A DNA stretch of 64,000 nucleotides. Source: a phage. The stretch lies in assembly GCA_021081985.1 (NCBI GenBank), contig GCA_021081985.1_3639.1, one strand, 5' to 3'. Below, one piece after another: positions 5,690 to 32,705 of the stretch. Both the position numbers and the translations under genes were made by a program. The notes under the pieces are model-generated. The model saw only the letters and a list, made by a program, of their open reading frames with translations, made no database searches and was not told the origin of the DNA. Position 1 is the stretch's first letter. Each line of letters opens with the position of its first letter.

Positions 5690-5693
5690 GGGG

Positions 5694-10346: not shown

Positions 10347-10354
10347 AATTTTTC

Positions 10355-10383: not shown

Positions 10384-10419
10384 TACTTTATCAAAGCTAA
10401 TTTACATAGGAGAGATTGA

Positions 10420-11507: not shown

Positions 11508-11509
11508 AT

Positions 11510-11606: not shown

Positions 11607-11807
11607 ACAAGTTTGTTTTATAGTGTATTAGCTTATATTATTCGATATAAATGCCTGATCAGCATTTGTTGTGAATGAGGCATACAATGCGTGAGAAAGC
11701 TATCGGTGCGCAACGTTGATTTCAAACGTAGTCATGCTCGTAGAGCACCAACTGTGGAAGTTGGAGGGTGGTTGAGTAACCATACACTATAAAGCATTCT
11801 TTAAAAT

Positions 11808-11892
11808 GGGCGGTGTCCCCACACAAGTCTTCTAAACTTGTACTTAAAAAGTGGGAAGGAAGTGAGAGGTTCGATTCCTCCACCGTCTACCA
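11808..11892 (+). ncRNA. non-canonical tRNA-like RNA
   Basis: 3' end TTCGATTCC...ACCGTCTACCA with a pairing 5' segment GGGCGGT, no D-arm, internal hairpin ACAAGT-cttctaa-ACTTGT. Confidence 0.3.
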
Positions 11893-11968
11893 GATTAACC
11901 CCAACTTGAGAATCGTCAGCGCGGCTCGTAAGACCCACTCTATAGGTTCTCTACCTGGGGTGCTTATT

Positions 11969-12045
11969 GCACGGTTGCCGGAATTTGGTTACGGGTCTGT
12001 CTGCAAAACGGATATATGTCGGTTCAAGTCCGACACCGTGCTCCA
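11969..12045 (+). tRNA. tRNA-Cys (GCA)
   Basis: Acceptor GCACGGT/ACCGTGC, anticodon arm TCTGT-CTGCAAA-ACGGA, T-arm GTCGGTTCAAGTCCGAC, CCA; D-stem imperfect. Confidence 0.65.
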
Positions 12046-12082
12046 AACTTTCAATTTCTTGGCAAATATGTTAAAATACCAC

Positions 12083-12111
12083 TTGACAGATATGTTTTTA
12101 TTTGATAATAT
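12083..12111 (+). promoter_or_regulatory. sigma70-like promoter
   Basis: TTGACA, 17 nt, TAATAT, followed by RBS and ATG at 12132. Confidence 0.6.
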
Positions 12112-12131
12112 CATTAAGTGGGGTTTTTAAA

Positions 12132-12479
12132 ATGGCTACTAAGCAGCTTACAAAACGTAGAAGAGGAAAAGGTCGTCCTCTGAAAGAGGAATCTAATGCA
12201 ATTCAGTTAGAGAAAAATATCCTAGATTTGAAAACGAATCTGATTGCAATGATTCCTGAAGCTCATCAGGTTCTTAGGGATTTGATGAAGAATGTGAATA
12301 CAAAAGACAATATCAGAGAAAATATCGCTCGTTATGTTATTGAGAAAGGTGAGCAGATGCTTTCTGATTACTTTGATGAGGAAAACGAAGAGTTACTCGA
12401 AAAAGATAACTCAGAAAAAGCGCCTATTAAGGCAGCCAAACCATTCTCGACGGATATTGTTCAATTCAAACAAGGTTAA
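12132..12479 (+). CDS. hypothetical protein with basic N-terminus
   Basis: ORF track 12102..12479; start moved to the ATG after the promoter and RBS (MATKQLTKRRRGKGRP...). Confidence 0.45.
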   Translation: MATKQLTKRRRGKGRPLKEESNAIQLEKNILDLKTNLIAMIPEAHQVLRDLMKNVNTKDNIRENIARYVIEKGEQMLSDYFDEENEELLEKDNSEKAPIKAAKPFSTDIVQFKQG

Positions 12480-12480
12480 T

Positions 12481-12570
12481 GTGTCGTTAGACCGTAGGGG
12501 TAGCGGGGGAGACTGTAAATCTCCTGTCTCGAAAGGGACTCGGGTAGTTCGACTCTATCACGGCACACCA
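12481..12570 (+). tRNA. tRNA-Tyr (GUA), type II
   Basis: Acceptor GTGTCGT/ACGGCAC, anticodon arm GGAGA-CTGTAAA-TCTCC, long variable arm, T-arm GGTAGTTCGACTCTATC, CCA. Confidence 0.75.
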
Positions 12571-12638
12571 ACTAAATCTGTACTGGCTTTGATGTGTGAC
12601 GATACCCTCCAATCGTGGTTGTTGGGTCAGTACAGTTT

Positions 12639-12714
12639 GGGAGTGTAGATCAGTTAGTAGATCGCTCGACCGATAATCGAGAGGACGTAGGGGCAGAGCC
12701 TACCACTCCCACCA
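12639..12714 (+). tRNA. tRNA-Ile (GAU)
   Basis: Acceptor GGGAGTG/CACTCCC, D-arm GATC..GATC, anticodon arm CTCGA-CCGATAA-TCGAG, CCA; position 33 is C and the T-loop is atypical. Confidence 0.6.
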
Positions 12715-12719
12715 AATAT

Positions 12720-12794
12720 GCATCCATAGTTTAATTGGGAAAACTACAGCCTTCCAAGCTGAAGTCGAGGGTTCGATGCCCTCTGGATGCTCCA
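12720..12794 (+). tRNA. tRNA-Gly (UCC)
   Basis: Acceptor GCATCCA/TGGATGC, anticodon loop CTTCCAA, T-arm GAGGGTTCGATGCCCTC, CCA. Confidence 0.75.
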
Positions 12795-12919
12795 GTTAAA
12801 AGATGTCAATGAAATCCGCTTGGGTCAACTGAAGACCGTAACAAATTCCATGGGGTTGTGTTTGCGGTCCAACCCTAGACATCTTCTATCTTTAGTAGAA
12901 GGCTTTAATACGGACGAGT

Positions 12920-13150
12920 ATGATGGTTTCTAAATTAATCATAACAAGGCATCATAATGCTAAAGAAATAGAGATTGTGAATGCTGCTGGCACTCTTGTG
13001 CTAAAAGTTGGTAAAGACTGTCCTTTTGAATTGTGCCAGAAGGAACTTTTAAGTTTGTGCGGTTTCAGGTTTAAACAGATTATCTTTGAAAATGCTTTTC
13101 AATATTCAGACTTAAACCAGTACATTATATCTAGGCTTGATCCTGCATGA
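12920..13150 (+). CDS. hypothetical small protein
   Basis: 76 aa ORF, 4-nt overlap with the next gene. Confidence 0.35.
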   Translation: MMVSKLIITRHHNAKEIEIVNAAGTLVLKVGKDCPFELCQKELLSLCGFRFKQIIFENAFQYSDLNQYIISRLDPA

Positions 13151-13704
13151 GATACTTGAAATATTTATCTTGGATCCTGTTAGCACCTCTTGATCCAATT
13201 ATGTCGGCTCTCTGTGTTATTCTGGCTCCTTTTGTTGTTCCGTTCTATAATGAGAAGACAGGGCATCTACCCTATATTTTCAGGTGGATGGAAACATATG
13301 ATAATCCTATAGACGGTGACAGAGGACACATAGAGAGATGGGAAGAAGTCCGTAAAATAGGAAGTTTTGGTGTTTACCTACAACGAGTTGCTTGGTTGTG
13401 GAGAAATAAAGCCTACAATTTTTCCTATCACGTACTTGGACGTGAAATCGCATCTGTGACAAAGTGGAAAGGAAACATCCATGTAAGCTCTGATGTGGAG
13501 GATAATCAACAAGGCTATTTGTTGATGTGGAATGACAATGCGTGGGGTGTATTCGCGTTTGTCCCGTCTTTTAGATTGTTTGGAAAACAATTTTACTGGC
13601 GAATTTATGTCGGTTGGAAACTGAAGAGTGTGGTTCCTGAAGACAGAGCTTTTTCAAGAGAGAGGGTGATGTTGGCATTTTTCATAAGTCCTTTCCGAAA
13701 ATAG
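13147..13704 (+). CDS. hypothetical membrane protein
   Basis: 185 aa, hydrophobic N-terminal segment LSWILLAPLDPIMSALCVILAPFVVPF. Confidence 0.45.
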   Translation: MRYLKYLSWILLAPLDPIMSALCVILAPFVVPFYNEKTGHLPYIFRWMETYDNPIDGDRGHIERWEEVRKIGSFGVYLQRVAWLWRNKAYNFSYHVLGREIASVTKWKGNIHVSSDVEDNQQGYLLMWNDNAWGVFAFVPSFRLFGKQFYWRIYVGWKLKSVVPEDRAFSRERVMLAFFISPFRK

Positions 13705-13710
13705 TTTTTA

Positions 13711-13792
13711 ATGAGAGTAGCGTAACTTCACTGGGTGAAGGCTGGCCTCCAAAACCAGTGACTAAGAGGTTCGATTCCTCACTCTCGTGCCA
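13711..13792 (+). tRNA. tRNA-like, possibly tRNA-Trp (CCA)
   Basis: Acceptor ATGAGAG/CTCTCGT, loop CTCCAAA, T-arm GAGGTTCGATTCCTC, CCA; D-region is over-long and non-canonical. Confidence 0.4.
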
Positions 13793-13793
13793 A

Positions 13794-13869
13794 AGGGGAT
13801 TAGCATAGTGGCCTAATGCAACGGGCTTTGACCCCGTGATCGGTTGTTCGAATCAACCATCCCCTGCCA
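13794..13869 (+). tRNA. tRNA-Gln (UUG)
   Basis: Acceptor AGGGGAT/ATCCCCT, D-arm GCAT..ATGC, anticodon arm ACGGG-CTTTGAC-CCCGT, T-arm GGTTGTTCGAATCAACC, CCA. Confidence 0.8.
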
Positions 13870-13878
13870 AGTTAAAAC

Positions 13879-13968
13879 GGAGAAGCAAATCGATTGGCGA
13901 CGAAACCACATTGGAAATGTGCTGACTGGTAAAACGGCTTGAGAGTTCGATTCTCTCCTTCTCCACCA
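13879..13968 (+). tRNA. tRNA-Ser (GGA), type II
   Basis: Acceptor GGAGAAG/CTTCTCC, anticodon loop TTGGAAA, long variable arm, T-arm GAGAGTTCGATTCTCTC, CCA. Confidence 0.7.
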
Positions 13969-13982
13969 GTTTTTAAGGATTT

Positions 13983-14726
13983 ATGTATGCACTCTCCCCA
14001 AGAAAAAAAAATGGAAAACAGATATTTAATTTGTTGAAAAGCGGAAAAGGCTTCTCAAACCCGCTTCAATCAGGTCTTTCTCTGGTTGGTGGTAAAGTAA
14101 GTAGTCTATCTTCTTTATCTTCCTCTATTTCTTCGGTAACTAACCCAGCTATAAAGGCTCAATTAGCTGCCGCAGGTTTGACAACTGGCGTTTTATCAAA
14201 TTTTACTTCGTCTCTTGGTTCTGTTACAAGCACGACAAAAACGCTTGTTGATTATGGTCAGAAATCTGTTGAAGAGTTCTCCCAAAGAATGCACGCAGCG
14301 AGTAATTATATGAGTACTCTGAGCAGAATGGGAGAAAAGACAAGTTGTTCAATATTTAGTGACGTTATGTCTGTAGCCACTGATTTAGGTAAGAAAGCTA
14401 TGGATGCCGTTAATTCCGCGATGGATGCGGTGAACGATGTTATGTCTCAATTGCAAGATGCAATAAATAAGGGTTTGAATACAATATCTAGTTTGGCGAG
14501 TAAAGCTGTCTCAGCGATAAACAAAGGGATCCAGAAAATGTCTGAGTATGCTAGCCAAGTGACAAAGATGATTGAAGATGAAGCAAAGAAGTTGGCAGAC
14601 TACTTAAAGACAAGTGCTGAAGGATTTCTCGCAGATATCCTACCTGATTGGTTTAACGATTCTTGTAAATCTGGTATAGTTGACCAGATTGCTACACCAG
14701 AGATGAAAGAAGTTCTTAAAAAGTAA
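13983..14726 (+). CDS. hypothetical protein with Ser/Thr-rich N-terminus and amphipathic helical repeats
   Basis: 247 aa; repeated AMDAVN/SAINKG-type helices. Confidence 0.5.
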   Translation: MYALSPRKKNGKQIFNLLKSGKGFSNPLQSGLSLVGGKVSSLSSLSSSISSVTNPAIKAQLAAAGLTTGVLSNFTSSLGSVTSTTKTLVDYGQKSVEEFSQRMHAASNYMSTLSRMGEKTSCSIFSDVMSVATDLGKKAMDAVNSAMDAVNDVMSQLQDAINKGLNTISSLASKAVSAINKGIQKMSEYASQVTKMIEDEAKKLADYLKTSAEGFLADILPDWFNDSCKSGIVDQIATPEMKEVLKK

Positions 14727-14728
14727 TT

Positions 14729-14822
14729 GGAAGATTAACCCTAATTTGGTAAGGGGTCTCCCTGCTAAGGAGATAGTAACCCAGAAATGGGTGTGCCAGT
14801 TCAAGTCTGGCATCTTCCTCCA
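14729..14822 (+). tRNA. tRNA-Ser (GCU), type II
   Basis: Acceptor GGAAGAT/ATCTTCC, anticodon arm TCTCC-CTGCTAA-GGAGA, long variable arm, T-arm GCCAGTTCAAGTCTGGC, CCA. Confidence 0.75.
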
Positions 14823-14901
14823 CTGTATGTCAAGGCTCAGATTTCTTCGGACCTGGGCGTTCGCCTTTGTTGGGTGTATATTCTCGGCAGAGGCTATCTT
14901 T

Positions 14902-14990
14902 GGAGGCTGGGGTGCATGGTGCACAAGCTGGTTTGAACCCAGTCCCGCTGTAGAGATATGGTGACAGTTCGATTCTGTCAGCCTCCTCCA
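14902..14990 (+). tRNA. tRNA-Ser (UGA), type II
   Basis: Acceptor GGAGGCT/AGCCTCC, anticodon arm GCTGG-TTTGAAC-CCAGT, long variable arm, T-arm GACAGTTCGATTCTGTC, CCA. Confidence 0.7.
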
Positions 14991-15213
14991 AGTTATCTTT
15001 AATGTAGCTTGTTTAGTTGCTTGGTGTGATTTTTCGGTGGATGGCTGCAACCATCTTATCGATACCCCAGAGCAGTCCGCTCTTTACTGGCGTAAGCCAA
15101 ACACTTATGATGGTCATGTAATCGTAATCTATCATTAGTGTGCTCTCCCTGGAGAGCTGTTGCGTATAGCTAATTATTGTGTGAGTAATTAGCTATTTTA
15201 AAGATAATTTGAC

Positions 15214-15290
15214 GGATCTGTAGCCAAATGGTTTAAGGCACTCGACTTTTAATCGAGAGATTGTTGGTTCGAATCCAACCAGATCCACCA
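15214..15290 (+). tRNA. tRNA-Lys (UUU)
   Basis: Acceptor GGATCTG/CAGATCC, anticodon arm CTCGA-CTTTTAA-TCGAG, T-arm GTTGGTTCGAATCCAAC, CCA. Confidence 0.85.
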
Positions 15291-15299
15291 AAATATTCA

Positions 15300-15390
15300 G
15301 GTTCTTTGACCGAGTGGTCGATGGTGACGGCCTGTTAAGCCGTTGGGAGGAATCTCCCCACCGAAGGTTCGAATCCTTCAGGAACCGCCA
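15300..15390 (+). tRNA. type II tRNA with GUU anticodon (nominally Asn)
   Basis: Acceptor GGTTCTT/AGGAACC, anticodon arm ACGGC-CTGTTAA-GCCGT, 19-nt variable arm with hairpin GGGAG/CTCCC, T-arm GAAGGTTCGAATCCTTC, CCA. Confidence 0.55.
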
Positions 15391-15474
15391 ATTCTTGACT
15401 TAATCAAGTCACAGATATCACCTAGCCAGCGATACCAGTTAGTAGATTCTGGGACAATTAAAATCTACATTTCT

Positions 15475-15552
15475 CTGTCCGTAGCGCAGCTTGGGTAGCG
15501 CGGGTCACTTGGGATGATCAGGTCGTTGGTTCAAATCCAACCGGACAGACCA
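15475..15552 (+). tRNA. tRNA-Pro (UGG)
   Basis: Acceptor CTGTCCG/CGGACAG, D-arm GCGC..GCGC, anticodon arm GGTCA-CTTGGGA-TGATC, T-arm GTTGGTTCAAATCCAAC, CCA. Confidence 0.8.
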
Positions 15553-15594
15553 ATAAACATATACATATCAAAGCAGAAATGTACAGAGGATACC

Positions 15595-15786
15595 ATGTTA
15601 ACAGTTAAAGTCGTATCTCCAAATGATGAACAAATTTTTTGTGGGAAAATTGTTGGGTATTGTGCTCATCAAAAGTCTATAGCTATTTCAGGTATTGACC
15701 AAAAAGTGTTTTTGTCTGAGGATCAGACCGCTTATGTGATCAATGCCAATGGAAAAACTATTTCTGTGTATCGTGGAAAACCGTAA
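15595..15786 (+). CDS. hypothetical small protein
   Basis: ORF track 15514..15786 begins inside tRNA-Pro; internal Met (MLTVKVV...) taken as start. Confidence 0.3.
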   Translation: MLTVKVVSPNDEQIFCGKIVGYCAHQKSIAISGIDQKVFLSEDQTAYVINANGKTISVYRGKP

Positions 15787-15800
15787 CTCTTAATATAAAT

Positions 15801-15877
15801 GGGCGATTGATGGAATTGGTATACATGTCAGGCTTAGAACCTGAATTTTGGGGGTTCGAGTCCCTCATCGCCTACCA
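15801..15877 (+). tRNA. type I tRNA with UAG anticodon (nominally Leu)
   Basis: Acceptor GGGCGAT/ATCGCCT, anticodon arm TCAGG-CTTAGAA-CCTGA, 5-nt variable loop, T-arm GGGGGTTCGAGTCCCTC, CCA. Confidence 0.55.
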
Positions 15878-15882
15878 ATTAT

Positions 15883-15958
15883 GTGACGGTAACTCAGTTG
15901 GTAGAGTGCCTTGCTGAAGACTAGGTGGTCACAGGTTCGAATCCTGTCCGTCACACCA
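15883..15958 (+). tRNA. tRNA-Phe (GAA)
   Basis: Acceptor GTGACGG/CCGTCAC, D-arm ACTC..GAGT, anticodon loop CTGAAGA, T-arm ACAGGTTCGAATCCTGT, CCA. Confidence 0.75.
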
Positions 15959-18631: not shown

Positions 18632-19978
18632 TTGAGTAAAGTATTTGGACCTGCCAGTCCTAAACAAAAAATGATTTTGGAGAGTAAAGCCCAAATTCTA
18701 ATAATTGGCGGGGCCGCCGGGTGTTTGTCTAAAGACCACGAGGTGTTGACACCATCTGGCTGGATTAAGATATCAGAATGGTCAGGACAGGACATTCTGC
18801 AATATGATAAAGCCACTGGGGAGGCTAAATTTATCCCTCCTTTAGAGTTTGTTAAACTCCCTTGTGAAAAACTTACAAGAATAGAAGGTAATGGTATTTG
18901 TCAAGAGCTATCTGACGAACATACTGTGATTTATAAACCAGACTATAAATCACAGCCAAGAACACTTTCTTTTTCTGAAGTGGCAGAAAGACATAACAAC
19001 TCTGTTAAAAAAGGTTGGACAGGTAAGTTCATAACTACATTTAACTATGATGGGCCTGGGATAGACATGACAGAAGGGGAATTAAGGCTTCAGGTTGCTG
19101 TCATGGCTGATGGGAGAGTTGTTAAAGAAGGGAAAGATAATTATACACAGATGCGCTTTGCTAAAAAGCGTAAATATGACCGCTTAATCGAACTTTGTAA
19201 AAAGTTTGGATTAAGATATGAAGATAGAGGATCAAAACCCAGTGAAAGATATACCACTGGGGAACAGTACGAGGTCATTGTATGGCCTAAATATCCTGAT
19301 AAAAAATTTACAGAGAAATACTATCAGTGTTCAAATGAACAACTGGAGATAATACTTGATGAGATTTTTCATTGGGATGGTTCTTTTTGTAAGCCATATG
19401 GCGGTAAAACACATAATAGCTTTACAGGTAGATATTTTACTGCTCATAAGACGAACGCTGATTTTGTTCAGTTTATAGGATCTTCTCTTGGTTATAATAC
19501 CACCATAAGCCATGATACAAGAAGTGGAAAGGACAGTTATACTGTTAATATTATGGCTAGAGGAAAAGGATTAAGGTCACTGGCTAATAAAGACAGAAAA
19601 GCTGAGTTTAAAGAGTTTATACCTACGGATGGGTTTAAATACTGCTTTGTAACACAAACAGGTTTCTTTGTTACCAGACTAGAAGATTGTGTGGTTGTCA
19701 CTGGGAATAGTGGAAAATCATATCTCCTACAATTGATGCCGCTTGCTTATGTCGATGACCCGCAGACAGCATGTATAATGTTTCGTAGGACAACACCTCA
19801 ATTGACAGGTGCAGGTGGACTTTTTGATACAGCGAAAAGTATTTATTTGCAACTCGATAAGGAATGGAAGCCGAAGTTCAGGGAGAAAGCTCTGGAAGCA
19901 ATTTTCCCATCTGGGGCAAAGGTGTTGTGGAGACACATGGAGTATGAGAATAACAAATTAGATCATCAGGGTGAATAG
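18632..19978 (+). CDS. terL: terminase large subunit, 5' part (N-extein, intein, C-extein segment)
   Basis: TTG start with RBS GGAGG; Walker A split as IIGGAAG | intein | SGKSYLL; translation stops at 19978 where the putative intron begins. Confidence 0.75.
   Translation: MSKVFGPASPKQKMILESKAQILIIGGAAGCLSKDHEVLTPSGWIKISEWSGQDILQYDKATGEAKFIPPLEFVKLPCEKLTRIEGNGICQELSDEHTVIYKPDYKSQPRTLSFSEVAERHNNSVKKGWTGKFITTFNYDGPGIDMTEGELRLQVAVMADGRVVKEGKDNYTQMRFAKKRKYDRLIELCKKFGLRYEDRGSKPSERYTTGEQYEVIVWPKYPDKKFTEKYYQCSNEQLEIILDEIFHWDGSFCKPYGGKTHNSFTGRYFTAHKTNADFVQFIGSSLGYNTTISHDTRSGKDSYTVNIMARGKGLRSLANKDRKAEFKEFIPTDGFKYCFVTQTGFFVTRLEDCVVVTGNSGKSYLLQLMPLAYVDDPQTACIMFRRTTPQLTGAGGLFDTAKSIYLQLDKEWKPKFREKALEAIFPSGAKVLWRHMEYENNKLDHQGE
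18722..19708 (+). mobile_element. intein in terminase P-loop (329 aa), with LAGLIDADG-like endonuclease motifs
   Basis: Begins CLSKDHEVLT (block A-like Cys1), ends VVVTGN followed by Ser+1; internal LQVAVMADGRV and LDEIFHWDGS; flanking residues reconstitute GGAAGSGKS. Confidence 0.7.
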
Positions 19979-21162
19979 CTTGCCCTTCGTGCCTATAACG
20001 GTGGAACTCCCTATGGGAAAATACCGTGCCACAGAATATGGAAATATAAAATCTGGGTGTAACGACTATCTCCGATGAGTGTAGGAGAGTAGAATCACAA
20101 GCGATTGGTGATCCAAACGGCACGCCAAGGATGGAAGATATAGTCTGTTCCACATGGAAACATGTGGCGGGTGTTTTAGCACACCGCCTCAGTGTAGCGA
20201 ACTGAGGGGACAATAAGTTGCAGTATACCTTTATAGGTTTTGATGAGGGTTGGTATTAGCTCTCTTTAAACCTCCCTAATTGTCGGGGAAACCTTTATTG
20301 TTTACATAACCAAGCAAATGTGGTAACATGTTTGTGGCCTACACTAACTATGTAGGGTATGGTAATATCATGTAAAATTAGGTAATCCGCAGCGAAGCAT
20401 CCCTATGGGATGAACGTTCAACGACTATCGCTTACGGGCGTTAGGGCCAAGCGGTGAGGGAAACCTCCAGTCTTTCAGACTGCCGAAATGGGAGGATATT
20501 TGCGTAATAATATTAAAAAATGTGTTGACTGCCATAGAGAACTTCCTCTTGATAAATTTTTTCTTTCATCAAAAAGTAGTGATGGATATTCTGGAGCTTG
20601 TAAAGAATGCTACATGTATTATAGACTTAACAACTCCAGAAAGAATAAGGATATGATTAAGAAAGAGGATGCTGCCATGTTTATACAAGATTTGGTATCA
20701 TCTGGTGAACTTTTCGAATGCAAAACTTGCCGTAAGAAGTTTTTAGCTGATAATTTTTATACTAAGAGAGATTATGGTAAAGTGTATCTTGCAACAAATA
20801 GATGTAAAAGATGTGAAAAGTTTTACCAAATAGAGAGAAAGTTTGGCATCTCTGAGGAATATTACTTTTCAATGTTGGAAAGGCAGGGGTTTAAGTGCGA
20901 GATATGTAAAATACCTTTGGAAGATTATAAAAATCAAGGGTATAGAGATTTTTTCTCCGTAGATCATGACCATAAGACAGGGAAGATTAGAGGTTTGTTA
21001 TGCGATAAGTGTAACAGGGCTTTGGGATTTTTCGGAGAAAATGAGGAAACACTTTTAAATGCCGCAGAATATATACGCAAATATAAGATATAGTCTGGTC
21101 TGCATGGTGACATGCAGCAGCACGTAGTGGTGCGGGATAAGAGTAGCGATCTTATCTGAACA
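19979..21162 (+). mobile_element. putative group I intron carrying an HNH homing endonuclease ORF
   Basis: Non-coding structured flanks around the HNH ORF; 38-nt core (20383-20420) and 3' segment (21114-21162) nearly identical to sequences in the DNA polymerase interruption; terminase frame reopens right after an in-frame TGA at about 21160. Boundaries approximate. Confidence 0.5.
20488..21093 (+). CDS. HNH homing endonuclease
   Basis: 201 aa; Cys-rich N-terminus and HNH motif SVDHDHKTGKIRGLLCDKCN. Confidence 0.8.
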   Translation: MGGYLRNNIKKCVDCHRELPLDKFFLSSKSSDGYSGACKECYMYYRLNNSRKNKDMIKKEDAAMFIQDLVSSGELFECKTCRKKFLADNFYTKRDYGKVYLATNRCKRCEKFYQIERKFGISEEYYFSMLERQGFKCEICKIPLEDYKNQGYRDFFSVDHDHKTGKIRGLLCDKCNRALGFFGENEETLLNAAEYIRKYKI

Positions 21163-21240
21163 AAAACGACACAATTCACATGGTCACAGATAGATTATCT
21201 GATATCTCGTCTACGTTCAAACTCTAAATATCCGAGCAGG

Positions 21241-22281
21241 ATGGTTATCTCTTGTAACCCTGATCCAGATCATAAGATTAAAGAGTTGATTTCTTGGTAT
21301 TTAGACGATGAGGGGTATCCTATACCTGAACGTGACGGGGTGATTAGATGGTTTATAAGACGTGACGGGGAGTTTATCTGGGGTGAATCAGAGCAAGAAT
21401 TAATTGAAAAGTATTGGGATGGCAAGGATGAGAAAAGAAAGCCTAAACCACTTTCATTTTCCTTCATTTCCGCAACAATATTCGATAATCCTCCCATGCT
21501 GGAGAATAACCCAGATTATCTAGCATTCCTTGAAGGTCTTCCAGAGGTAGAAAAAGCCCAGTTATTGCATGGAAACTGGAACGCAAGACCTGAAGGGGCA
21601 AACTATTTCCAGAGATCTTATTTAAAAGAGGTTCCCTGCTTACCTCTCGGTGTTGTATCTGTTCGTCCGTATGATAAAGCAGGTACAGAAAGAACATCTG
21701 GAAACAGATATCCTGACTTTACAGCATCTGTTAAGGTAAGTAAAGACAATGATGGTTTTTACTACTTGTCTGGTGATTATTGTCCTGAATTTTTTGATGA
21801 TGGTAGATATTCGACTCAAACGCAGGGAAGATTCTGTAAAAAAGCTGGGGAACGTGATGTTATCATTAAGAAACAGGCTTATTTTGATGGTGATGATGTC
21901 ACCATAATTTTCAGTGTTGACCCAGGACAAGCAGGAATAAGTGAATTTTTAACAAGCTCCCGTGAACTAATAGCGGAAGGGTTTACAGTAGAAAAAGATC
22001 CTACACCAAGCAATAAATCAAAATTAACACGATTCACACCGTTTGCAAAACTTGCTCAAGCAGGTATGGTGAGAATAGTTCGTGATAGTTTTGATCCTAA
22101 AACTTATGAAGCCCTTATGACAGAGCTTGAAAAGTTCAATGGGGAAAGGAGTACTACGACAAGAAAAGACGATTGGGTCGACGCCATTTCTTCTGGGATA
22201 AATTATCTTGAAAAAGAAGAAATAGTCAAACCTGTTGTTATTCCAAAAATTGTAGCTCCTACCTTGTATAAAAGAATATAA
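21241..22281 (+). CDS. terL: terminase large subunit, 3' part
   Basis: 346 aa from first ATG; reading frame is open upstream to about 21163, so the true exon probably starts there without its own start codon. Confidence 0.7.
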   Translation: MVISCNPDPDHKIKELISWYLDDEGYPIPERDGVIRWFIRRDGEFIWGESEQELIEKYWDGKDEKRKPKPLSFSFISATIFDNPPMLENNPDYLAFLEGLPEVEKAQLLHGNWNARPEGANYFQRSYLKEVPCLPLGVVSVRPYDKAGTERTSGNRYPDFTASVKVSKDNDGFYYLSGDYCPEFFDDGRYSTQTQGRFCKKAGERDVIIKKQAYFDGDDVTIIFSVDPGQAGISEFLTSSRELIAEGFTVEKDPTPSNKSKLTRFTPFAKLAQAGMVRIVRDSFDPKTYEALMTELEKFNGERSTTTRKDDWVDAISSGINYLEKEEIVKPVVIPKIVAPTLYKRI

Positions 22282-27025: not shown

Positions 27026-27051
27026 GATAGCTTAAATGCTACCTCTAATGA

Positions 27052-27082
27052 GGGGAGGTGAATTATCACCTCCCCTTTTTTC
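27052..27082 (+). terminator. rho-independent terminator after capsid gene
   Basis: GGGGAGGTG-aattat-CACCTCCCC followed by TTTTTTC. Confidence 0.8.
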
Positions 27083-27156
27083 ACATTCTGACCTTAATAA
27101 TAGCCACTTATCCTGTGTTGTCAAGTGGTTTTTACTAAGGAATAAAAGGAGATTTT

Positions 27157-27666
27157 ATGGCAAATCAAAATTATCGTATTTTCCCTAATAAAGTGGAACT
27201 GTTTAAGTTTTTCGGAGCATATGCACCACAATTGAATGCAGCGGTATCTGCAAGACTGCCTTTGAATGGTTTATGTGTGGGAACACAACACAAAGCATTC
27301 AGAAACACTGTTGAGTTTTTCACTGCTCTTGCTGAGATGTCTGGTCTTGATGTTGATGCACAGCACTCTACTATTCGTATGGGATCTTATATCGTGTTCT
27401 TCAACAAAGATATCCCTAGCCCAAATAGTATGGGTAAGGTAGTTGATGCCAAGATTGTAGAAGTGCAAGATAAAAAGGATGATAAAGAAAATCTATCTAT
27501 TGACCTGATTTTAGAGGAAGCAATGTCTCTGAATGATGAAGCTGATAAAAAAGGTAGTAAAGATAGATTAGTTGAGTTTGCACTTTCTAAAGGTGTTACA
27601 CTGACTAAGAACAAATCCTTTGAAAAGATGATTGCTGATCTTAAATCTGAATTAGAAGCATTTTAA
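27157..27666 (+). CDS. hypothetical structural protein
   Basis: 169 aa ORF with RBS AAAGGAG. Confidence 0.4.
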   Translation: MANQNYRIFPNKVELFKFFGAYAPQLNAAVSARLPLNGLCVGTQHKAFRNTVEFFTALAEMSGLDVDAQHSTIRMGSYIVFFNKDIPSPNSMGKVVDAKIVEVQDKKDDKENLSIDLILEEAMSLNDEADKKGSKDRLVEFALSKGVTLTKNKSFEKMIADLKSELEAF

Positions 27667-27693
27667 AATGTTTTTTTTTCAAGGAGTTAAGCA

Positions 27694-28947
27694 ATGACAG
27701 CAACAACAGGTGTTGGTGGTTTAATTTATGGTCGTGCATTGGTTGACCAGAAGACAGGAAAGAAAATAAATTTTGATGAACTGGGTGGCGGGAATATTCC
27801 AGAAGATATAACAGATCTTATTGCATCTAAAGCCCCAATAGAAAGCCCTTCATTTACAGGGAACCCTCAAGCACCAACACCGTTGGATGATGCTATTGGA
27901 AAGGAAATAGCTAATGTAGAATATGTGAGGGGTTTAATTGCAAAATTGGCTGACTCAGCGCCTGAAACATTGGATACTCTCAATGAATTAGCGAAGGCAT
28001 TAGGTGATGACCCTAACTTTGCGACAACCATAACTAACGCTCTTGCTGGTAAACAACCATTGAGTGAAATACTGACATCTTTGTCAGGATTGATTACTGC
28101 TGGAAATAAACTAGCTTATTTCAGTGATAAAAACGTAATGGCTTTGGCAAATCTCTCCGCTGTTGGTCGAGTTATCATAGGGCAAGACTCAAAAACTGGT
28201 GTTCTCGATTATCTGGGGATAAAAACCGCTGCCGCAAAAGATGTACAAAGGGATATCTACGATACCACAGAAGGGGTGGTATCTTTACCAGGGGCATTTG
28301 GTTTTGGTGCGTTTTTTCCTACGGAGAAAGAAGTTGTTTTTCAAGAGAAGAATGGGCCAGAGGAATGGGTTTCTTGGTTGAGAAGTGCACAACCTGGTCG
28401 CTACCTTGTTCGCCAAGATTTACCTTCAGGTGGCACACCTATTATTAAAGGGATTACTGCTTTCAAAGGTATGGTTGAGGTATTGTCACCATATCCAGCA
28501 GAGAATGCAGAGCAGGCAGCAAAAAATAGTAAACATGCCTATTTTTATGGCATAAATGGGGAGTTGTACCATTATCGCTTACTGACTATTTTTGCCAATG
28601 GTGACTGGGTGAATATAAAAGGGCAATTCTCTTCTTTGCAGTCTACGGTAGGCAATTCTTGGGGGAGTCCTGATGTTGGAGGAATAATGTTAGGAGTGTA
28701 TCTTGGCGCTTCAGACACTGATTCAAACAGAAAACTTGTTCGTGGTCAGACTATCCCAGGATCCCGCATAGGGTGTATAACTCTTTACAGCAAAGTTTCC
28801 GCAACAGGTGCATATCAAAGTACACCAGTTTCTGTTACACACAGTACTGAAACACAGAGAGGTACGTTTATAGCCTTATCCGGTTCACCAAGCAATAGTA
28901 ATGGTACTGATACAGGTTATATTGGCCTTTTTATGAGGATTGCATGA
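27694..28947 (+). CDS. tail fiber protein
   Basis: 417 aa; conserved fiber motif SPSFTGNPQAPTP...IANVEYV; N-terminus MTATTGVGGLIYGRALVD. Confidence 0.6.
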   Translation: MTATTGVGGLIYGRALVDQKTGKKINFDELGGGNIPEDITDLIASKAPIESPSFTGNPQAPTPLDDAIGKEIANVEYVRGLIAKLADSAPETLDTLNELAKALGDDPNFATTITNALAGKQPLSEILTSLSGLITAGNKLAYFSDKNVMALANLSAVGRVIIGQDSKTGVLDYLGIKTAAAKDVQRDIYDTTEGVVSLPGAFGFGAFFPTEKEVVFQEKNGPEEWVSWLRSAQPGRYLVRQDLPSGGTPIIKGITAFKGMVEVLSPYPAENAEQAAKNSKHAYFYGINGELYHYRLLTIFANGDWVNIKGQFSSLQSTVGNSWGSPDVGGIMLGVYLGASDTDSNRKLVRGQTIPGSRIGCITLYSKVSATGAYQSTPVSVTHSTETQRGTFIALSGSPSNSNGTDTGYIGLFMRIA

Positions 28948-29516
28948 TGCTAGATATTAAAGATATCAAGTCTCCACAGTATCTTCTTAATGGCGACGTT
29001 GATTGTCTGGTACTTTTTGATGGTTTTTCTGATTATCTTCCATACACCGCTTCCAGCAACGACTATAGTGAAACTGGGAAAGCAGTTTGGGATTCCTTAC
29101 AGTCTGGTAATTTTGGGGAGATTGCCCCGTATGTAGTAAACCCTCAATTTATCGAGGCATTAAAGCAACAGATGTTATCAGAAATAAAAGAGTGGAGAAA
29201 ACTGGAAGAAAGCTCTACAGCTATTGTTTCTTATAATGGTGCAAGGTATGATGTCAATAATGCAACCCTTGGTCGTATTTATCCAGTATTATTAGCACAA
29301 AAAGCATCCTCGGCTAGACAAGCTGTGGTTTGGAGAGATGTTGATAACAAACCTGTAGAGATGAGTAGCTCTGAATTTGAAAATCTTGTTGTAGCTATGT
29401 CTTCCGAGTTGGCAACTAAGAATGATTCAATATACATCAAGCAACGAGAAATGAAAGATCAAGTGCTTTCAGCCTCTACGGTTGAGGAATTACAAAGGAT
29501 AAAAATTGGGTGGTAG
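28944..29516 (+). CDS. hypothetical protein, fiber-associated
   Basis: 190 aa, overlapping start/stop with both neighbours. Confidence 0.4.
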   Translation: MMLDIKDIKSPQYLLNGDVDCLVLFDGFSDYLPYTASSNDYSETGKAVWDSLQSGNFGEIAPYVVNPQFIEALKQQMLSEIKEWRKLEESSTAIVSYNGARYDVNNATLGRIYPVLLAQKASSARQAVVWRDVDNKPVEMSSSEFENLVVAMSSELATKNDSIYIKQREMKDQVLSASTVEELQRIKIGW

Positions 29517-31297
29517 CTATGGATTATAAGGATAAAGTTGTCAATGCTGAAGTCATACTTCCAGATGGGCATAGTATTGGAGGATCAGGACTCCCAAGCC
29601 AATCTTTTAAATTATACACAGAAGACACCGCGACCATAAAACTTTCAGGTAATGGTGAAAAAGCAACACCACTTAAAGGTGTTGTTGTGGTGGCAGAAGA
29701 TGAAAATAATGCTCTCCAAGCTGGAGATAATGGGTTAGCTGTTAAGGTTAGCCCTGCTGCAAATAACCTGTTGGAGTTGAAACAAGGGGCATTATATGTA
29801 ACAGCGCCCGAAATAAATATCCCTATATCTCCTAAAGAAGGAAATGCTTTAACAAATCTGACTTCTGAAGGTGAAGAGGGGTTGTATGTTGCACCTACCA
29901 AAGTACAAGGATGGCTTTATGATCCTGCGCCTGGTGTTGCAGCTTTGCCTGGAGCTTTCGGCTACGGAATGACAAATCCTGGAGCAATTTCACTTATTGC
30001 TTACAGTCTTGGCGATGTTGCACGTTCTGCCCATAACCTACACCCAGGTAGGTATTATACTTTCACCACACGATCTGAGGAAATGACCGGAATAACAGAA
30101 ATTATCTGGCTGGATAATGGCTGGGGCGACAAAACCAGCCAGACAGCAACAAAGCTGGTTCTGTTTTTTGGAAAAGACGGTCGTATGAAGTATACAATCC
30201 GTGGCGACAATCCAAGGGAGCCAGCAGTGTGGTATGATTTGTTAACTGCCAAACAAGCGAATATTCATGATCGCACGGCTGGTGTTGCAGCCATACCGGG
30301 AAGTTTTGGGTACGGTATGGCAGCGAGCGATGGTGTCACCTTATCGTTGCTAAACATTGATGAGATCGCTTCTCTTGCTAATCAGACCATGCCGGGGAGG
30401 TATTATGCCCATATACAATTCCCAGCAAACTCTGGCGTATTTGAAATAATATGGCTAGATAATTGGCAAAATGATAAAACTTCAGCAACGGCAAGTAAAT
30501 TGATCTTGTTTTATGGCGCGGATGGTAGTGTTAAGTATACAATTAGAGGCTCAGACCCTAGTACCCCTGTTTCCTGGGTAGACCTTGGAGGAAGTTCTGC
30601 CACCTATTCACTATCTATCGGCACAGTTTCCTCTTTGGAAAGTGGGCAACAGGCAACCGCATCAATAACTGGTGATTCTCCTTCACAAGTTCTTAACTTA
30701 GGTATCCCTAAGGGTGCTGATGGACAAACAATAAAATCTGTTAATGCTGTTGTTAAAGAAATAGACAGTGCACAACAGGTAACACTGACTTTTACAATGA
30801 CAGATGATTTAAGTCAACAGGCGAGCTTTAATATCCCATTTTCTCCTCAGCCGACTATGAAGTTGTCAGCAACATCTGGGAATTTCTCTTTCAATTATAG
30901 CGATACACCTTCAGCGAAAAAAGCAGCGGGGAGATCTGGGTCTTCTATATATTTGAAAACAACAGTTGATCTGAACAGATCAACTGCTGGCAGTACAGAT
31001 GTTATGGTGGATGTTCGTTTGACAGAGATACCTTGTACGGAAGACGGTACGTATCTTGATTATGATATCTATGCAGAATACCCAAGTGTTGTCGGGTCAG
31101 GGCAACCCACAGTGGCTGTATGGCTTATTCTACCAACAGTTCCCACGCATACCATTGATCCCAAGACGAAGACAATAACTAAACTTCTTCGTGGTGATGG
31201 TTTATCAGGACTTAATGGAATCATTCCTATTGCAGGTGCAGACGAACAAGTCCACGAATTTAAATATTTCTTGCAATATTCTTATCTGAACAACTAA
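29510..31297 (+). CDS. tail fiber or structural protein with internal tandem domain duplication
   Basis: 595 aa; two ~100-aa repeats (ALPGAFGYGM...IIWLDNGWGDKTSQTATKL and AIPGSFGYGM...IIWLDNWQNDKTSATASKL). Confidence 0.5.
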   Translation: MVAMDYKDKVVNAEVILPDGHSIGGSGLPSQSFKLYTEDTATIKLSGNGEKATPLKGVVVVAEDENNALQAGDNGLAVKVSPAANNLLELKQGALYVTAPEINIPISPKEGNALTNLTSEGEEGLYVAPTKVQGWLYDPAPGVAALPGAFGYGMTNPGAISLIAYSLGDVARSAHNLHPGRYYTFTTRSEEMTGITEIIWLDNGWGDKTSQTATKLVLFFGKDGRMKYTIRGDNPREPAVWYDLLTAKQANIHDRTAGVAAIPGSFGYGMAASDGVTLSLLNIDEIASLANQTMPGRYYAHIQFPANSGVFEIIWLDNWQNDKTSATASKLILFYGADGSVKYTIRGSDPSTPVSWVDLGGSSATYSLSIGTVSSLESGQQATASITGDSPSQVLNLGIPKGADGQTIKSVNAVVKEIDSAQQVTLTFTMTDDLSQQASFNIPFSPQPTMKLSATSGNFSFNYSDTPSAKKAAGRSGSSIYLKTTVDLNRSTAGSTDVMVDVRLTEIPCTEDGTYLDYDIYAEYPSVVGSGQPTVAVWLILPTVPTHTIDPKTKTITKLLRGDGLSGLNGIIPIAGADEQVHEFKYFLQYSYLNN

Positions 31298-31307
31298 GGG
31301 GATAATT

Positions 31308-31565
31308 ATGGCAACAACAGGTGTGGCTGGTAAAGTATATGCATCAAGCCTTGTTGATATAAAAACTGGAAAATCTGTGAAAATCGAAGATATTATTGCT
31401 GGAGGCTCAGATAGCTATGTTCTTCCAGCGGCTACGGAATCAGTATTAGGAGGTGTTAAGAAAGCACAAACACAAGCAGATTCTGTGGCTTCAGATGTCT
31501 CTACGTTGGTCAACGATTTTAATGCTTTGCTTGCCAAGTTGAAAGCCGCTGGTATTATGTCGTGA
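31308..31565 (+). CDS. short fiber-like protein
   Basis: 85 aa; N-terminus MATTGVAGKVYASSLVDIKTGK parallels the N-terminus of the 27694 fiber. Confidence 0.4.
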   Translation: MATTGVAGKVYASSLVDIKTGKSVKIEDIIAGGSDSYVLPAATESVLGGVKKAQTQADSVASDVSTLVNDFNALLAKLKAAGIMS

Positions 31566-31570
31566 TAAAA

Positions 31571-31596
31571 AAGACCCTTCGGGGTCTTTTTATTTT
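31571..31596. terminator. bidirectional rho-independent terminator
   Basis: AAGACCC-ttcg-GGGTCTT with T-runs on both sides, between convergent genes. Confidence 0.75.
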
Positions 31597-31994
31597 AGGA
31601 GTTCCTGTACTCCTTTATTCAAATTTGCATTAATATACGGTTCACGCCCATTCTTATAGAAAGTACAGATGTATTTCCCAGTGTAAGATTTTTTTCCTGA
31701 GATAATTGCGACATCATCAAAATATTGATATGCTTCTGCTTGCTCTGCAATTCTGCCTTCAAAGCCTGATGACACAACAATCACGTCTGGTTTAAATGCT
31801 TCTCTGAATCTCTTATCGCAAGATAATTGTACAATACGGCTAATTGCCTCATCTTTTTCTTCTGGTGACAACCAACTTGCCTCGACAGATTTATAATCAT
31901 TAATGTCTGGGTTATTTTTCACATATTGGAGAGTCCCCGCTGCAATAACAGCACAGACGCACAGACCAATTGTAATTTTTAAAATATTTTTCAT
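31590..31994 (-). CDS. lipoprotein on opposite strand, candidate superinfection-exclusion protein
   Basis: 134 aa; signal peptide with Cys-containing lipobox region ITIGLCVCAVIAAG; only minus-strand gene inside the plus-strand tail module. Confidence 0.55.
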   Translation of the reverse strand: MKNILKITIGLCVCAVIAAGTLQYVKNNPDINDYKSVEASWLSPEEKDEAISRIVQLSCDKRFREAFKPDVIVVSSGFEGRIAEQAEAYQYFDDVAIISGKKSYTGKYICTFYKNGREPYINANLNKGVQELLK

Positions 31995-32121
31995 AAATCC
32001 TCCATAGCAGTTGTTGTGTTTATCTTACCTACGGAATTTTTCGTGTCAAGCGTTTTTAATGACAAAAATTGTATTTTGTGATAATATAGTTACTAACAAG
32101 TAACATAAAATGGAGAGTTAG

Positions 32122-32640
32122 ATGACAGACCAAGAAATTGTTGATTACATCAGGCTCCTGCTTGGGTCAATATCCCCAGAGGCACTACCTGATGAAGTTA
32201 TCATGGCATTCCTTGAGATGGAGAAAAAAAGAGCAAACTGGCCTAACCCATCATCCACGCCTTGCGACATGTGGAGAGTGGTCTATAACACAATGGTGGC
32301 TGTATTAAGATGGTTAATTCTTCAAGAGATAAATTCTGGCGAGGCATCCATCACAGAAAGATTGGAAAAGATAGGTGATGAGACAATACAGGTGAAAGGC
32401 GGATCGTCATACCAGAACTGGAAAGATTTTCTGGACTGGCTACTGCAAAACCCTGATTACGTCAATAGCTGCCTGAATGGTGTCTCTGGTTTGGTTATTG
32501 TGGGCGGTGTGCGACAGGATGAGTTTTGGCGTGTTAAGAGTAATCCTAACTCAAGAAGCCCGTTTGATGTTTCCGGTATAGTTCCTCAAACAGGAGTTCC
32601 CGGTATTCCTCGGAGATACCCAAAACACAGGTATTATTGA
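32122..32640 (+). CDS. hypothetical head-tail joining protein
   Basis: 172 aa, position between fiber genes and tail genes. Confidence 0.4.
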   Translation: MTDQEIVDYIRLLLGSISPEALPDEVIMAFLEMEKKRANWPNPSSTPCDMWRVVYNTMVAVLRWLILQEINSGEASITERLEKIGDETIQVKGGSSYQNWKDFLDWLLQNPDYVNSCLNGVSGLVIVGGVRQDEFWRVKSNPNSRSPFDVSGIVPQTGVPGIPRRYPKHRYY

Positions 32641-32705
32641 CAATCGTATTCCTAATTATTGATTTTGCTTGGATAATGTGGTAAAATACCTTAACGGGAG
32701 TTCTT

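What the first reader, a model, noticed from the sequence alone, without database searches (positions are those of the whole stretch)
31590..31994. Opposite-strand lipoprotein gene embedded in the tail module
It is the only minus-strand gene within about 35 kb of plus-strand late genes. It encodes a 134-aa protein with a lipoprotein-type signal peptide, converges on a bidirectional terminator with the upstream fiber-like gene, and has an AT-rich promoter-like region of its own. This mirrors phage lipoproteins that block the phage's own receptor (T5 Llp, Cor-type), which are expressed independently of late genes.
Basis: partly seen in the sequence, partly recalled or inferred. Interest (0 to 1): 0.6.

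Follow-up and report, generated by a model that had tools for sequence, protein, structure and literature searches.

The report
Lone opposite-strand phage membrane-protein gene
A real, self-contained gene sits backwards among the structural genes of an rV5-like E. coli phage and encodes a small exported protein of unknown family that is not a lipoprotein; it may shield the infected cell's envelope (for example against a second infection), but nobody has tested what it does.

Summary
The 134-aa ORF at 31590..31994 (-) is a real gene. It is the only opposite-strand protein gene in a ~48-kb co-directional block of an Avunavirus (Vequintavirinae) genome. It has its own Shine-Dalgarno site and a sigma70-type promoter conserved across three phage genera. 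A conserved bidirectional terminator hairpin is shared with the upstream 'head-fibre' gene. dN/dS is 0.16.

The lipoprotein claim fails. There is no lipobox, and the two N-terminal cysteines exist only in Avunavirus copies. The family (phrog_11434; PVP-SE1 gp66, Av05_0081; about 20 protein clusters, Avuna-/Seuna-/Mydovirus only) has a short positively charged N-terminus and a 19-21-residue hydrophobic segment. This is followed by a ~105-aa domain with exactly two invariant cysteines. AlphaFold2 (pLDDT 88) gives a cystatin/NTF2-like alpha+beta roll.

There is no detectable homology to T5 Llp, T4 Sp or Imm, any Pfam or NCBIfam model, or any solved structure. The spanins of these phages lie elsewhere.

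Best reading: a moron-like, probably early-expressed, inner-membrane-tethered periplasmic protein. It most plausibly acts in envelope-level exclusion or protection at the inner membrane, not by masking an outer-membrane receptor. The function is inferred, not shown. Interest is moderate.

The parts
31590..31994 (-). CDS, 134 aa; orthologue of Av05_0081, PVP-SE1 gp66, GAP31_206 and KB57_068; member of phrog_11434
   Evidence: ORF list; PHROG match E 2.5e-64; tblastn hits in 66 phage records; dN/dS 0.16
31920..31985 (-). Codons 4-25: N-terminal hydrophobic segment. It is a signal anchor or possibly a cleavable Sec signal peptide, and it is rich in G/A/S/T. It contains the non-conserved Cys12 and Cys14.
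   Evidence: Uncharged stretch of 19-21 residues and an N-flank net charge of +2/+3 in 20 family members. AlphaFold2 helix 2-27. The PVP-SE1 record notes one TM by Octopus/TMHMM. 15 of the 20 aa differences from Av-05 fall in residues 1-32.
31593..31919 (-). Codons 26-134: predicted periplasmic alpha+beta domain (cystatin/NTF2-like roll) with invariant W41, C59, D60, F63, R64, Y108-I109-C110, K114 and C-terminal LLK
31998..32003 (-). Shine-Dalgarno GGAGGA, 3 nt upstream of the ATG
   Evidence: Sequence read directly; a purine-rich SD is conserved in 9 loci
32022..32059 (-). Sigma70-type promoter of the gene: UP-like TAAAAA, -35 TTGACA (32049..32044), 16-nt spacer, -10 TAAGAT (32027..32022)
   Evidence: Promoter scan 10/12. 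The -35 is invariant and the extended -10 is conserved across 3 genera. Same class as the early-region promoters of this genome and of Certrevirus. Predicted only; no transcript data.
32059..32087 (+). Divergent promoter-like site ATGACA-17-(TG)ATAATAT for the adaptor/neck/tail operon, back-to-back with the promoter above
   Evidence: Scan; the TGTCAT and TATCTTATCA blocks are invariant in alignment A3
31567..31591 (.). Bidirectional intrinsic terminator hairpin, shared with the convergent 85-aa head-fibre-type gene (31308..31565 +)
   Evidence: Folding on both strands; conserved with a compensatory change in 11 loci; annotated as two rho-independent terminators in the PVP-SE1 record

Best explanation
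The gene is a moron-like, self-contained transcription unit (own sigma70/early-type promoter, strong SD, own bidirectional terminator). It is inserted antisense at the head/neck junction of the structural genes of an Avunavirus.

Its product is exported by the Sec pathway and is not lipidated. A short positively charged N-terminus stays in the cytoplasm. A 19-21-residue G/A/T-rich helix anchors it in the inner membrane, or less likely is cleaved off. A ~105-residue cystatin/NTF2-like alpha+beta domain, probably stabilised by one disulfide (C59-C110), faces the periplasm close to the membrane surface.

[quoted passage not shown] The best candidate role is exclusion of superinfecting related phages at the genome-entry step. 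That would work like T4 Imm/Sp or HK97 gp15, not like the receptor-masking lipoproteins Llp and Cor.

Shown here: gene reality, transcription signals and their conservation, absence of a lipobox, family distribution, fast evolution, predicted fold. Inferred: topology, disulfide, timing of expression, partner binding and the exclusion function.
For: Gene reality and autonomy.

Promoter class: shared with the early-region promoters of the same genome and with the Certrevirus putative early/middle promoter.

Moron criteria:
- The gene is absent from the same junction in rV5, Hena1, CR3 and Aeromonas phage 4L372XY.
- Its GC is 35.8% against 41-43% in the flanks.
- Its position and orientation are strictly conserved in Avuna-, Seuna- and Mydovirus.

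Export and topology: the N-flank carries +2/+3, the uncharged stretch is 19-21 residues, and the ectodomain has exactly two cysteines in 20 of 20 members. The AlphaFold2 model has pLDDT 88.

Host- or competitor-facing evolution: 85% identity to Av-05 against 97-100% for neck and tail neighbours; 49-54% against 72-96% to Seunavirus; 38% against 60-89% to Mydovirus. The divergence is similar to that of the fibre genes.

Other points: conserved charged residues on the long helix (E45, E46, K47, R53, D60, R64) fit a binding surface. Cystatin/latexin-type folds are typical binder and inhibitor scaffolds. The layout parallels T5 llp/oad.
Against: - There are no experimental data for any member of the family (literature search empty).
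- There is no homology to any known exclusion protein.
- The tools here cannot decide between a signal anchor and a cleavable signal peptide. If the segment is cleaved, the inner-membrane restriction falls.
- A sigma70-like site also precedes the adjacent structural operon, so promoter type alone does not prove early timing.
- Strong conservation of the ectodomain core between Avunavirus strains (residues 33-101 identical to Av-05) also fits a housekeeping role for the phage.
Confidence: 0.4

Rival explanations
1. One reading: an Llp/Cor-type outer-membrane lipoprotein that masks the phage's own receptor from the periplasmic side.
For: The protein is small and exported, with two conserved cysteines. 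It has an independent promoter and is oriented opposite to the structural genes, as T5 llp is relative to oad. It lies next to fibre-like genes. One metagenomic homologue (P0015) does carry a VSSC lipobox-like motif.
Against: The window protein has no lipobox, and the N-terminal Cys is missing in 14 of 18 family members. hhalign probability against Llp is 0.6%. The only PHROG match is its own family. Characterised Vequintavirinae use ECA and LPS core, not a TonB-dependent protein receptor (PMC8594841). The mature domain is about twice the size of Llp.
Confidence: 0.05
2. A lysis-timing protein: either a class III-like holin (one TM, N-in/C-out, periplasmic domain, as in T4 T) or an RI-like antiholin whose G/A/T-rich helix acts as a signal-anchor-release domain.
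For: The topology and size fit, and the hydrophobic segment is 37-53% G/A/S/T. Lysis genes are scattered in these phages, and holins were reported as unidentified or uncertain (KPP-1, PMC9862379; CB7, PMC7344957). rIIA/rIIB homologues exist in rV5 and PVP-SE1.
Against: The gene is absent from rV5, Certrevirus and Henunavirus, although rV5 shares the o-spanin family of Av-05, 4MG, PVP-SE1 and GAP31. It is not near the spanins (Av-05 1492-2184). The cytoplasmic N-terminus is only 2-6 residues. No PHROG holin or antiholin family matches. An early-type promoter would be odd for a holin.
Confidence: 0.15
3. A periplasmic enzyme inhibitor (of a protease or peptidoglycan hydrolase) that uses the cystatin/latexin-like scaffold. 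It would protect phage or host envelope components during infection. One version is Spackle-like inhibition of a tail lysozyme.
Against: The cystatin QxVxG motif is absent (sequence). Foldseek gives no significant PDB hit. NTF2-like non-inhibitors such as VirB8, TraE and DotI score nearly as well. No lysozyme domain was found in the ten tail and baseplate proteins scanned. hhalign against T4 Sp gives 2.7%.
Confidence: 0.15
4. A virion or assembly component, suggested by its position among the structural genes.
For: Position between the head and neck modules.
Against: An export signal and membrane anchor do not fit cytoplasmic assembly. The gene is on the opposite strand with its own early-type promoter. 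It is absent from sister genera that have the same neck and tail proteins.
Confidence: 0.03

Closest known systems
T5 Llp and the Cor lipoproteins of T1/phi80/N15 (superinfection exclusion by jamming FhuA)
   Same: Small phage-encoded exported protein with a conserved cysteine pair. The gene lies on the strand opposite to the structural genes and is transcribed from a divergent promoter next to host-recognition genes (T5 record; PMC9586334).
   Different: No lipobox or lipidation signal and no sequence relationship. The mature part is about 105 aa against about 61 aa, and the predicted anchor is in the inner rather than the outer membrane. No protein receptor is known for this phage group.
T4 Imm and Sp (Spackle); P22 SieA; HK97 gp15 (exclusion at the inner membrane or periplasm)
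   Same: Small membrane or periplasmic proteins of phages that act after adsorption (review PMC11436027). From my own knowledge, HK97 gp15 is likewise a single-TM product of a moron inside the late structural region (Cumby et al. 2012; paper not held).
   Different: No homology to Sp or Imm. The fold is predicted alpha+beta, whereas Spackle is helical as far as I recall (not tested here). No exclusion phenotype has been measured for this family.
Morons of lambdoid phages (promoter + ORF + terminator inserted between late genes)
   Same: All the structural hallmarks are present: own promoter, own terminator, lower GC, and absence from the same junction in related genomes. PHROGs files the family under 'moron, auxiliary metabolic gene and host takeover'.
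   Different: The host genome is a virulent 130-150-kb myovirus, not a prophage, so the gene must act during lytic growth. It is fixed in three genera rather than sporadic.
VirB8/TraE/DotI-type bitopic proteins and cystatin/latexin-fold inhibitors
   Different: Sequence identity is 4-13%, there is no shared motif, and the domain is smaller. Foldseek is not significant. This is a fold resemblance only.

Membership tests
Llp/Cor superinfection-exclusion lipoproteins | Lipoprotein signal peptide with a lipobox ([LVI][ASTVI][GAS]C) and an invariant +1 Cys | tested here: not met
   No PROSITE-type or L-A/S-G/A-C match in the window protein. Cys12 and Cys14 are preceded by IGL and LCV and are absent from 14 of 18 members.
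Llp/Cor superinfection-exclusion lipoproteins | Sequence relationship to Llp or Cor | tested here: not met
   hhalign of A2 against T5 Llp gives probability 0.6%. The PHROG scan returns only phrog_11434. No Pfam hit.
Llp/Cor superinfection-exclusion lipoproteins | Independent, early expression from a gene placed beside and opposite to host-recognition or structural genes | tested here: met
   Conserved early-class sigma70 promoter and divergent layout, compared with T5 llp/oad. This is prediction only; there are no transcript data.
Llp/Cor superinfection-exclusion lipoproteins | Blocks the phage's own outer-membrane protein receptor | not testable with these tools
   The receptor of this phage is unknown. 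Related Vequintavirinae use ECA and LPS core glucose (PMC8594841).
T4 Spackle (Sp) | Sequence relationship to Sp, and a tail-lysozyme target | tested here: not met
   hhalign probability 2.7%, with only an 11-residue chance-level match. No lysozyme domain in the 10 tail and baseplate proteins scanned.
T4 Imm | Sequence relationship to Imm | tested here: not met
   hhalign probability 0.3%
Moron (autonomous promoter-ORF-terminator insert in a late region) | Own promoter upstream and own factor-independent terminator downstream | tested here: met
Moron (autonomous promoter-ORF-terminator insert in a late region) | Absent from the same junction in related genomes, with deviating base composition | tested here: met
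   No such gene upstream of the adaptor gene in rV5, Hena1, CR3 or 4L372XY. GC is 35.8% against 41-43% in the flanks.
Two-component spanin (i-spanin) | N-terminal TM plus a coiled-coil periplasmic domain, paired with an adjacent or embedded o-spanin lipoprotein gene | tested here: not met
   The spanins of Av-05, PVP-SE1, 4MG and GAP31 were assigned to other genes by Kongari et al. 2018 (Av-05 at 1492-2184; PMC6139136). The ectodomain is an alpha+beta roll, not a coiled coil. There is no adjacent lipoprotein ORF.
Cystatin-superfamily protease inhibitors | Cystatin fold plus the QxVxG hairpin motif | tested here: inconclusive
Holin (class III) / RI-type antiholin | Sequence membership in a known holin or antiholin family, and linkage to lysis genes | tested here: not met
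   No PHROG, Pfam or NCBIfam holin or antiholin match. The gene is not next to the spanins. Function itself cannot be tested here.

The most novel reading that the evidence does not exclude
The family is a new type of phage exclusion or envelope-remodelling factor. It would be an early-expressed, inner-membrane-tethered (possibly releasable) periplasmic cystatin-fold protein. It would either block genome entry of related myoviruses or neutralise a conserved periplasmic host enzyme, in phages that recognise glycans and so cannot use receptor masking. Its conserved helix face (SSWLSxEEK...CDxxFR) would be the binding surface for a partner shared by E. coli, Salmonella, Klebsiella, Cronobacter and Proteus.
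Probability: 0.3. Interest if true: 0.6.

Novelty: new variant of a known kind. Interest (0 to 1): 0.38.

Why it matters
PVP-SE1-like, Mydovirus and Avunavirus phages are widely proposed for biocontrol and therapy against Salmonella, Klebsiella, Cronobacter and E. coli. If this conserved accessory gene alters the envelope of infected cells and excludes related phages, that would bear on cocktail design, since members could exclude each other. It would also point to the still-unknown inner-membrane step of genome entry for rV5-like myoviruses. The family has no detectable relatives and a confident predicted structure, so a simple plasmid-expression and plating-efficiency experiment could assign a function to a whole orphan family. 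If no phenotype is found, it remains an ordinary hypothetical membrane protein that GenBank records already annotate as such.

Tried and rejected
- Sequence annotation: Pfam, NCBIfam, PADLOC and PDB-sequence searches gave nothing, with the single protein or the family profile.
- Deposited annotations: 'adenosine deaminase' (18-1-2, 19-1-2, 24-2-1, TH18) and 'putative portal protein' (Salmonella phage 19, GEC_vB_MG) have no support and were rejected.
- Remote homologues: a profile search of 1.84 billion representatives found only family members plus long repetitive proteins whose scores are summed repeat artefacts. The word-indexed search of 5.8 billion proteins found 17 clusters, all phage.
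- Spanin hypothesis: rejected from the Kongari et al. supplement.
- Viral structure library: the only real hit is a family member. The afdb50 library was unavailable.
- Literature: no paper mentions the family by locus tag or PHROG id. The PVP-SE1 and HK97 gp15 papers are not held. No transcriptome of a Vequintavirinae phage was found.
- KP12 virion band: the '12 kDa putative membrane protein' band in PMC9902359 rests on gel size only and was not taken as evidence.
- Signal anchor versus cleavable signal peptide: could not be settled. No SignalP or DeepTMHMM was available, and inspecting the -3/-1 positions by eye was inconclusive.

Full report
**What the window is.** Region 31000-32700 is 95% identical to Escherichia phages 18-1-2, 19-1-2, 24-2-1 and vB_EcoM_TH18, and 91% identical to Av-05, the type species of Avunavirus in Vequintavirinae (the rV5-like myoviruses). 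The flagged ORF is the orthologue of Av05_0081, annotated 'membrane protein'. The four Chinese isolates label it 'adenosine deaminase', which nothing supports.

**Checking the observation.**
- The ORF exists as described: 31590..31994, minus strand, ATG start, 134 aa. No plus-strand ORF covers the interval.
- In TH18 every annotated CDS from peg54 to peg109 (~47 kb) is on one strand except this gene. In the window the co-directional block runs from about 5.7 to 53.8 kb.
- That block is not purely late genes. It also contains 14 tRNA genes and an NAD-salvage gene pair.
- The gene converges on the 85-aa gene at 31308..31565, whose product matches the C-terminus of Pfam 'Head fiber protein'.
- The two stop codons are 24 nt apart. 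Almost all of that gap is the hairpin AAAAAGACCC-TTCG-GGGTCTTTTT, which folds on both strands (-15.9 and -12.7 kcal/mol; z -2.8 and -3.2) and has a U-run on each side.
- The hairpin is present directly after the stop codon in all 11 related loci examined, with a compensatory GACCC/GGGTC to GGCCC/GGGCC exchange. The PVP-SE1 record annotates rho-independent terminators on both strands there.
- Upstream, the 127-bp intergenic region is 29.9% GC against 40.1% for the window. It contains GGAGGA 3 nt before the ATG and TTGACA-16-TAAGAT.

**The promoter.**
- In an alignment of nine phages from three genera, the -35 hexamer is invariant and a TGnTAnnnT-type extended -10 is kept, while the spacer sequence drifts.
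- A second, divergent promoter-like site (ATGACA-17-TGATAATAT) points into the adaptor/neck/tail operon and is equally conserved.
- The minus-strand promoter carries the upstream TAAAA-N4-5-c-TTGACA signature. Promoter-like sites clustered at 5.4-12.1 kb, in the region of small genes and tRNAs, share this signature.
- The same signature was described as the putative early/middle sigma70-like promoter of the sister genus Certrevirus, whose members encode no RNA polymerase (PMC7344957).

**Is the gene real?** Comparison with Av-05 gives dN 0.083, dS 0.505 and dN/dS 0.16. This is a real gene under purifying selection.

**The protein is not a lipoprotein.**
- The N-terminus is MKNILKITIGLCVCAVIAAGTLQYVKNNPD.
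- Neither cysteine is preceded by a lipobox. Position -1 is L or V, and the Cys lies at residue 12 or 14, which is too close to the N-terminus. The PROSITE-type rule is not met.
- Only the Avunavirus copies have these cysteines. Seunavirus and Mydovirus copies have none in this segment. A single metagenomic member (P0015) has a VSSC motif.

**What the family does conserve.**
- An N-flank of net charge +2/+3.
- An uncharged stretch of 19-21 residues that is 37-53% Gly/Ala/Ser/Thr, ending in an aromatic-Lys boundary.
- Exactly two cysteines (C59 and C110) in the remainder, in 20 of 20 members.

This pattern predicts an N-in/C-out protein whose C-terminal ~105 residues are periplasmic and probably disulfide-bonded. 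I cannot decide between a stable signal anchor (favoured; the PVP-SE1 annotators found one TM with Octopus/TMHMM) and a cleavable Sec signal peptide.

**Structure.**
- AlphaFold2 on an 18-sequence alignment gives pLDDT 88 and pTM 0.73. The model has helix 2-27, short helix 34-38, a long helix 44-64 packed on a five-stranded antiparallel sheet (72-125), and a C-terminal helix.
- An independently predicted BFVD model of a 38%-identical Mydovirus homologue superposes at TM 0.82.
- Foldseek finds no significant PDB match, and sequence identity is 4-13%. This is a fold class, not a homology statement. The cystatin QxVxG motif is absent.

**Family and distribution.**
- The only library match is phrog_11434 ('membrane protein', category moron/host takeover; E 2.5e-64).
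- tblastn finds the gene in 66 phage records. All are Avunavirus, Seunavirus or Mydovirus, infecting E. coli, Salmonella, Cronobacter, Enterobacter, Klebsiella, Raoultella and Proteus.
- The 5.8-billion-protein search finds 17 clusters. An exhaustive profile search of 1.84 billion representatives adds two divergent members and nothing else credible.
- In every locus inspected the gene has the same position and orientation, between the head-fibre-type gene and the adaptor gene.
- It is absent from that junction in rV5, Erwinia phage Hena1, Cronobacter phage CR3 and Aeromonas phage 4L372XY. In those phages the space between the capsid and adaptor genes holds other, variable cargo.
- Its GC content (35.8%) is below that of its flanks (41-43%).
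- Together with the promoter and terminator, this meets the structural definition of a moron, here fixed in a clade of virulent phages.

**Rate of evolution.**
- It evolves much faster than its structural neighbours. Identity to Av-05 is 85% against 97-100% for the neck and tail neighbours. To Seunavirus it is 49-54% against 72-96%, and to Mydovirus 38% against 60-89%.
- Between the window and Av-05, most changes fall in the hydrophobic segment and the C-terminal tail, while residues 33-101 are identical.
- Across genera the invariant residues cluster on the long helix (SSWLSxEEK...R...CDxxFR) and the Y-I-C strand. This fits a conserved binding surface.

**What it is not.**
- It is not a spanin. 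Kongari et al. assigned the separated i- and o-spanin pair of Av-05, PVP-SE1, 4MG and GAP31 to other genes (Av-05 1492-2184; PMC6139136).
- It is not related to T5 Llp, T4 Sp or T4 Imm. hhalign probabilities are 0.6%, 2.7% and 0.3%.
- It is not in PADLOC.
- A virion role is unlikely given the export signal, the separate promoter and the absence from sister genera that share the same neck and tail proteins.

**Most likely mechanism.**
- The unit is probably transcribed by host RNA polymerase from early in infection.
- The product inserts into the inner membrane with its small, disulfide-stabilised binder-type domain held within a few nanometres of the membrane surface.
- The fast, fibre-like evolutionary rate and the gene layout fit an envelope-level exclusion or protection function. 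The layout matches that of T5 llp, which is divergent from oad with back-to-back promoters (PMC9586334).
- Receptor masking of the Llp/Cor kind is unlikely. The protein is not lipidated, and characterised Vequintavirinae use ECA and the LPS outer core, not a protein receptor (PMC8594841).
- I therefore favour action at the genome-entry step, in the manner of T4 Imm/Sp or HK97 gp15, with about 0.35-0.4 confidence.

**Rivals.**
- A lysis-timing role, as a class III-like holin or an RI-like antiholin with a releasable anchor (~0.15). Holins are poorly identified in this group.
- A periplasmic enzyme inhibitor, suggested by the fold (~0.15).
- The original lipoprotein reading (~0.05).

None of these functions has been tested for any member of the family.

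**Verdict.** It is wrong on the lipoprotein detail and imprecise on the module. The gene is already annotated in GenBank as a hypothetical membrane protein. What is new here is the anatomy: the conserved early-class promoter, the bidirectional terminator, the non-lipoprotein topology, the cystatin-like ectodomain with a conserved cysteine pair, and the clade-restricted moron status. Interest is moderate.

Noticed in passing
window 27097-27124 (minus strand), with the hairpin at about 27035-27065: There is a second conserved minus-strand early-class promoter (gTAAAAAccacTTGACA-16-TATTAT) in the 131-bp gap between the major capsid gene and the next gene. It points antisense into the 3' end of the capsid gene, across the capsid terminator hairpin. 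The TTGACA is invariant and the -10 is conserved in PVP-SE1, GAP31, Mydo, Ro1 and two metagenomic contigs. No credible minus-strand ORF follows. It could drive a conserved antisense RNA against capsid mRNA.
   Followed up: partly
window 18632-22281: The large terminase gene appears interrupted. It is split into a 448-aa N-terminal piece (18632-19978) and a 346-aa piece carrying the end of Terminase_6N plus Terminase_6C (21241-22281). An Endonuclease VII/HNH-type ORF (20488-21093) lies between them. TH18 annotates three 'terminase large subunit' pieces plus an HNH homing endonuclease. Rfam found no group I intron here at gathering threshold.
   Followed up: partly
window 63228-63502 (minus strand): Group I catalytic intron (RF00028, 78.7 bits, E 2.5e-18) in the replication-gene region near the right end of the window.
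   Followed up: no
window 9627-15958 (plus strand): A cluster of 14 tRNA genes (Met, Thr, Cys, Tyr, Gly, Gln, 3x Ser, Lys, Asn, Pro, Leu, Phe) lies inside the co-directional block. Rfam adds two further weak tRNA-like hits at 11510-11606 and 12639-12711.
   Followed up: no
window 6126-8715: An NAD-salvage pair: a ribose-phosphate pyrophosphokinase-like gene (6126-6935) and a nicotinamide/nicotinate phosphoribosyltransferase-like gene (7000-8715).
   Followed up: no
window 5436-12111 (plus strand): Nine TTGACA-N17-TAnnnT promoter-like sites cluster here, several with the upstream TAAAA-N4-5-c element. In the ~38-kb structural region perfect TTGACA promoter-like sites are sparse, and only the two minus-strand ones described in this report are conserved.
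   Followed up: partly
window 27157-31565, compared with loci L011-L014: The stretch between the capsid gene and the adaptor gene is a variable cargo zone. The window has fibre-like genes of 417, 190 (DUF4376), 595 and 85 aa. Hena1 has an EPS depolymerase there, CR3 has tail-fibre genes, and rV5 has two small ORFs. Whether these 'tail fibre' or 'head fibre' proteins decorate the head or the tail is unresolved.
   Followed up: no
orthologues in OK136180, OK181858, OK181861, ON075799, KR296684, MW006477: The public annotations of this gene as 'adenosine deaminase' or 'putative portal protein' are unsupported by any profile search and look like annotation-transfer errors.
   Followed up: yes
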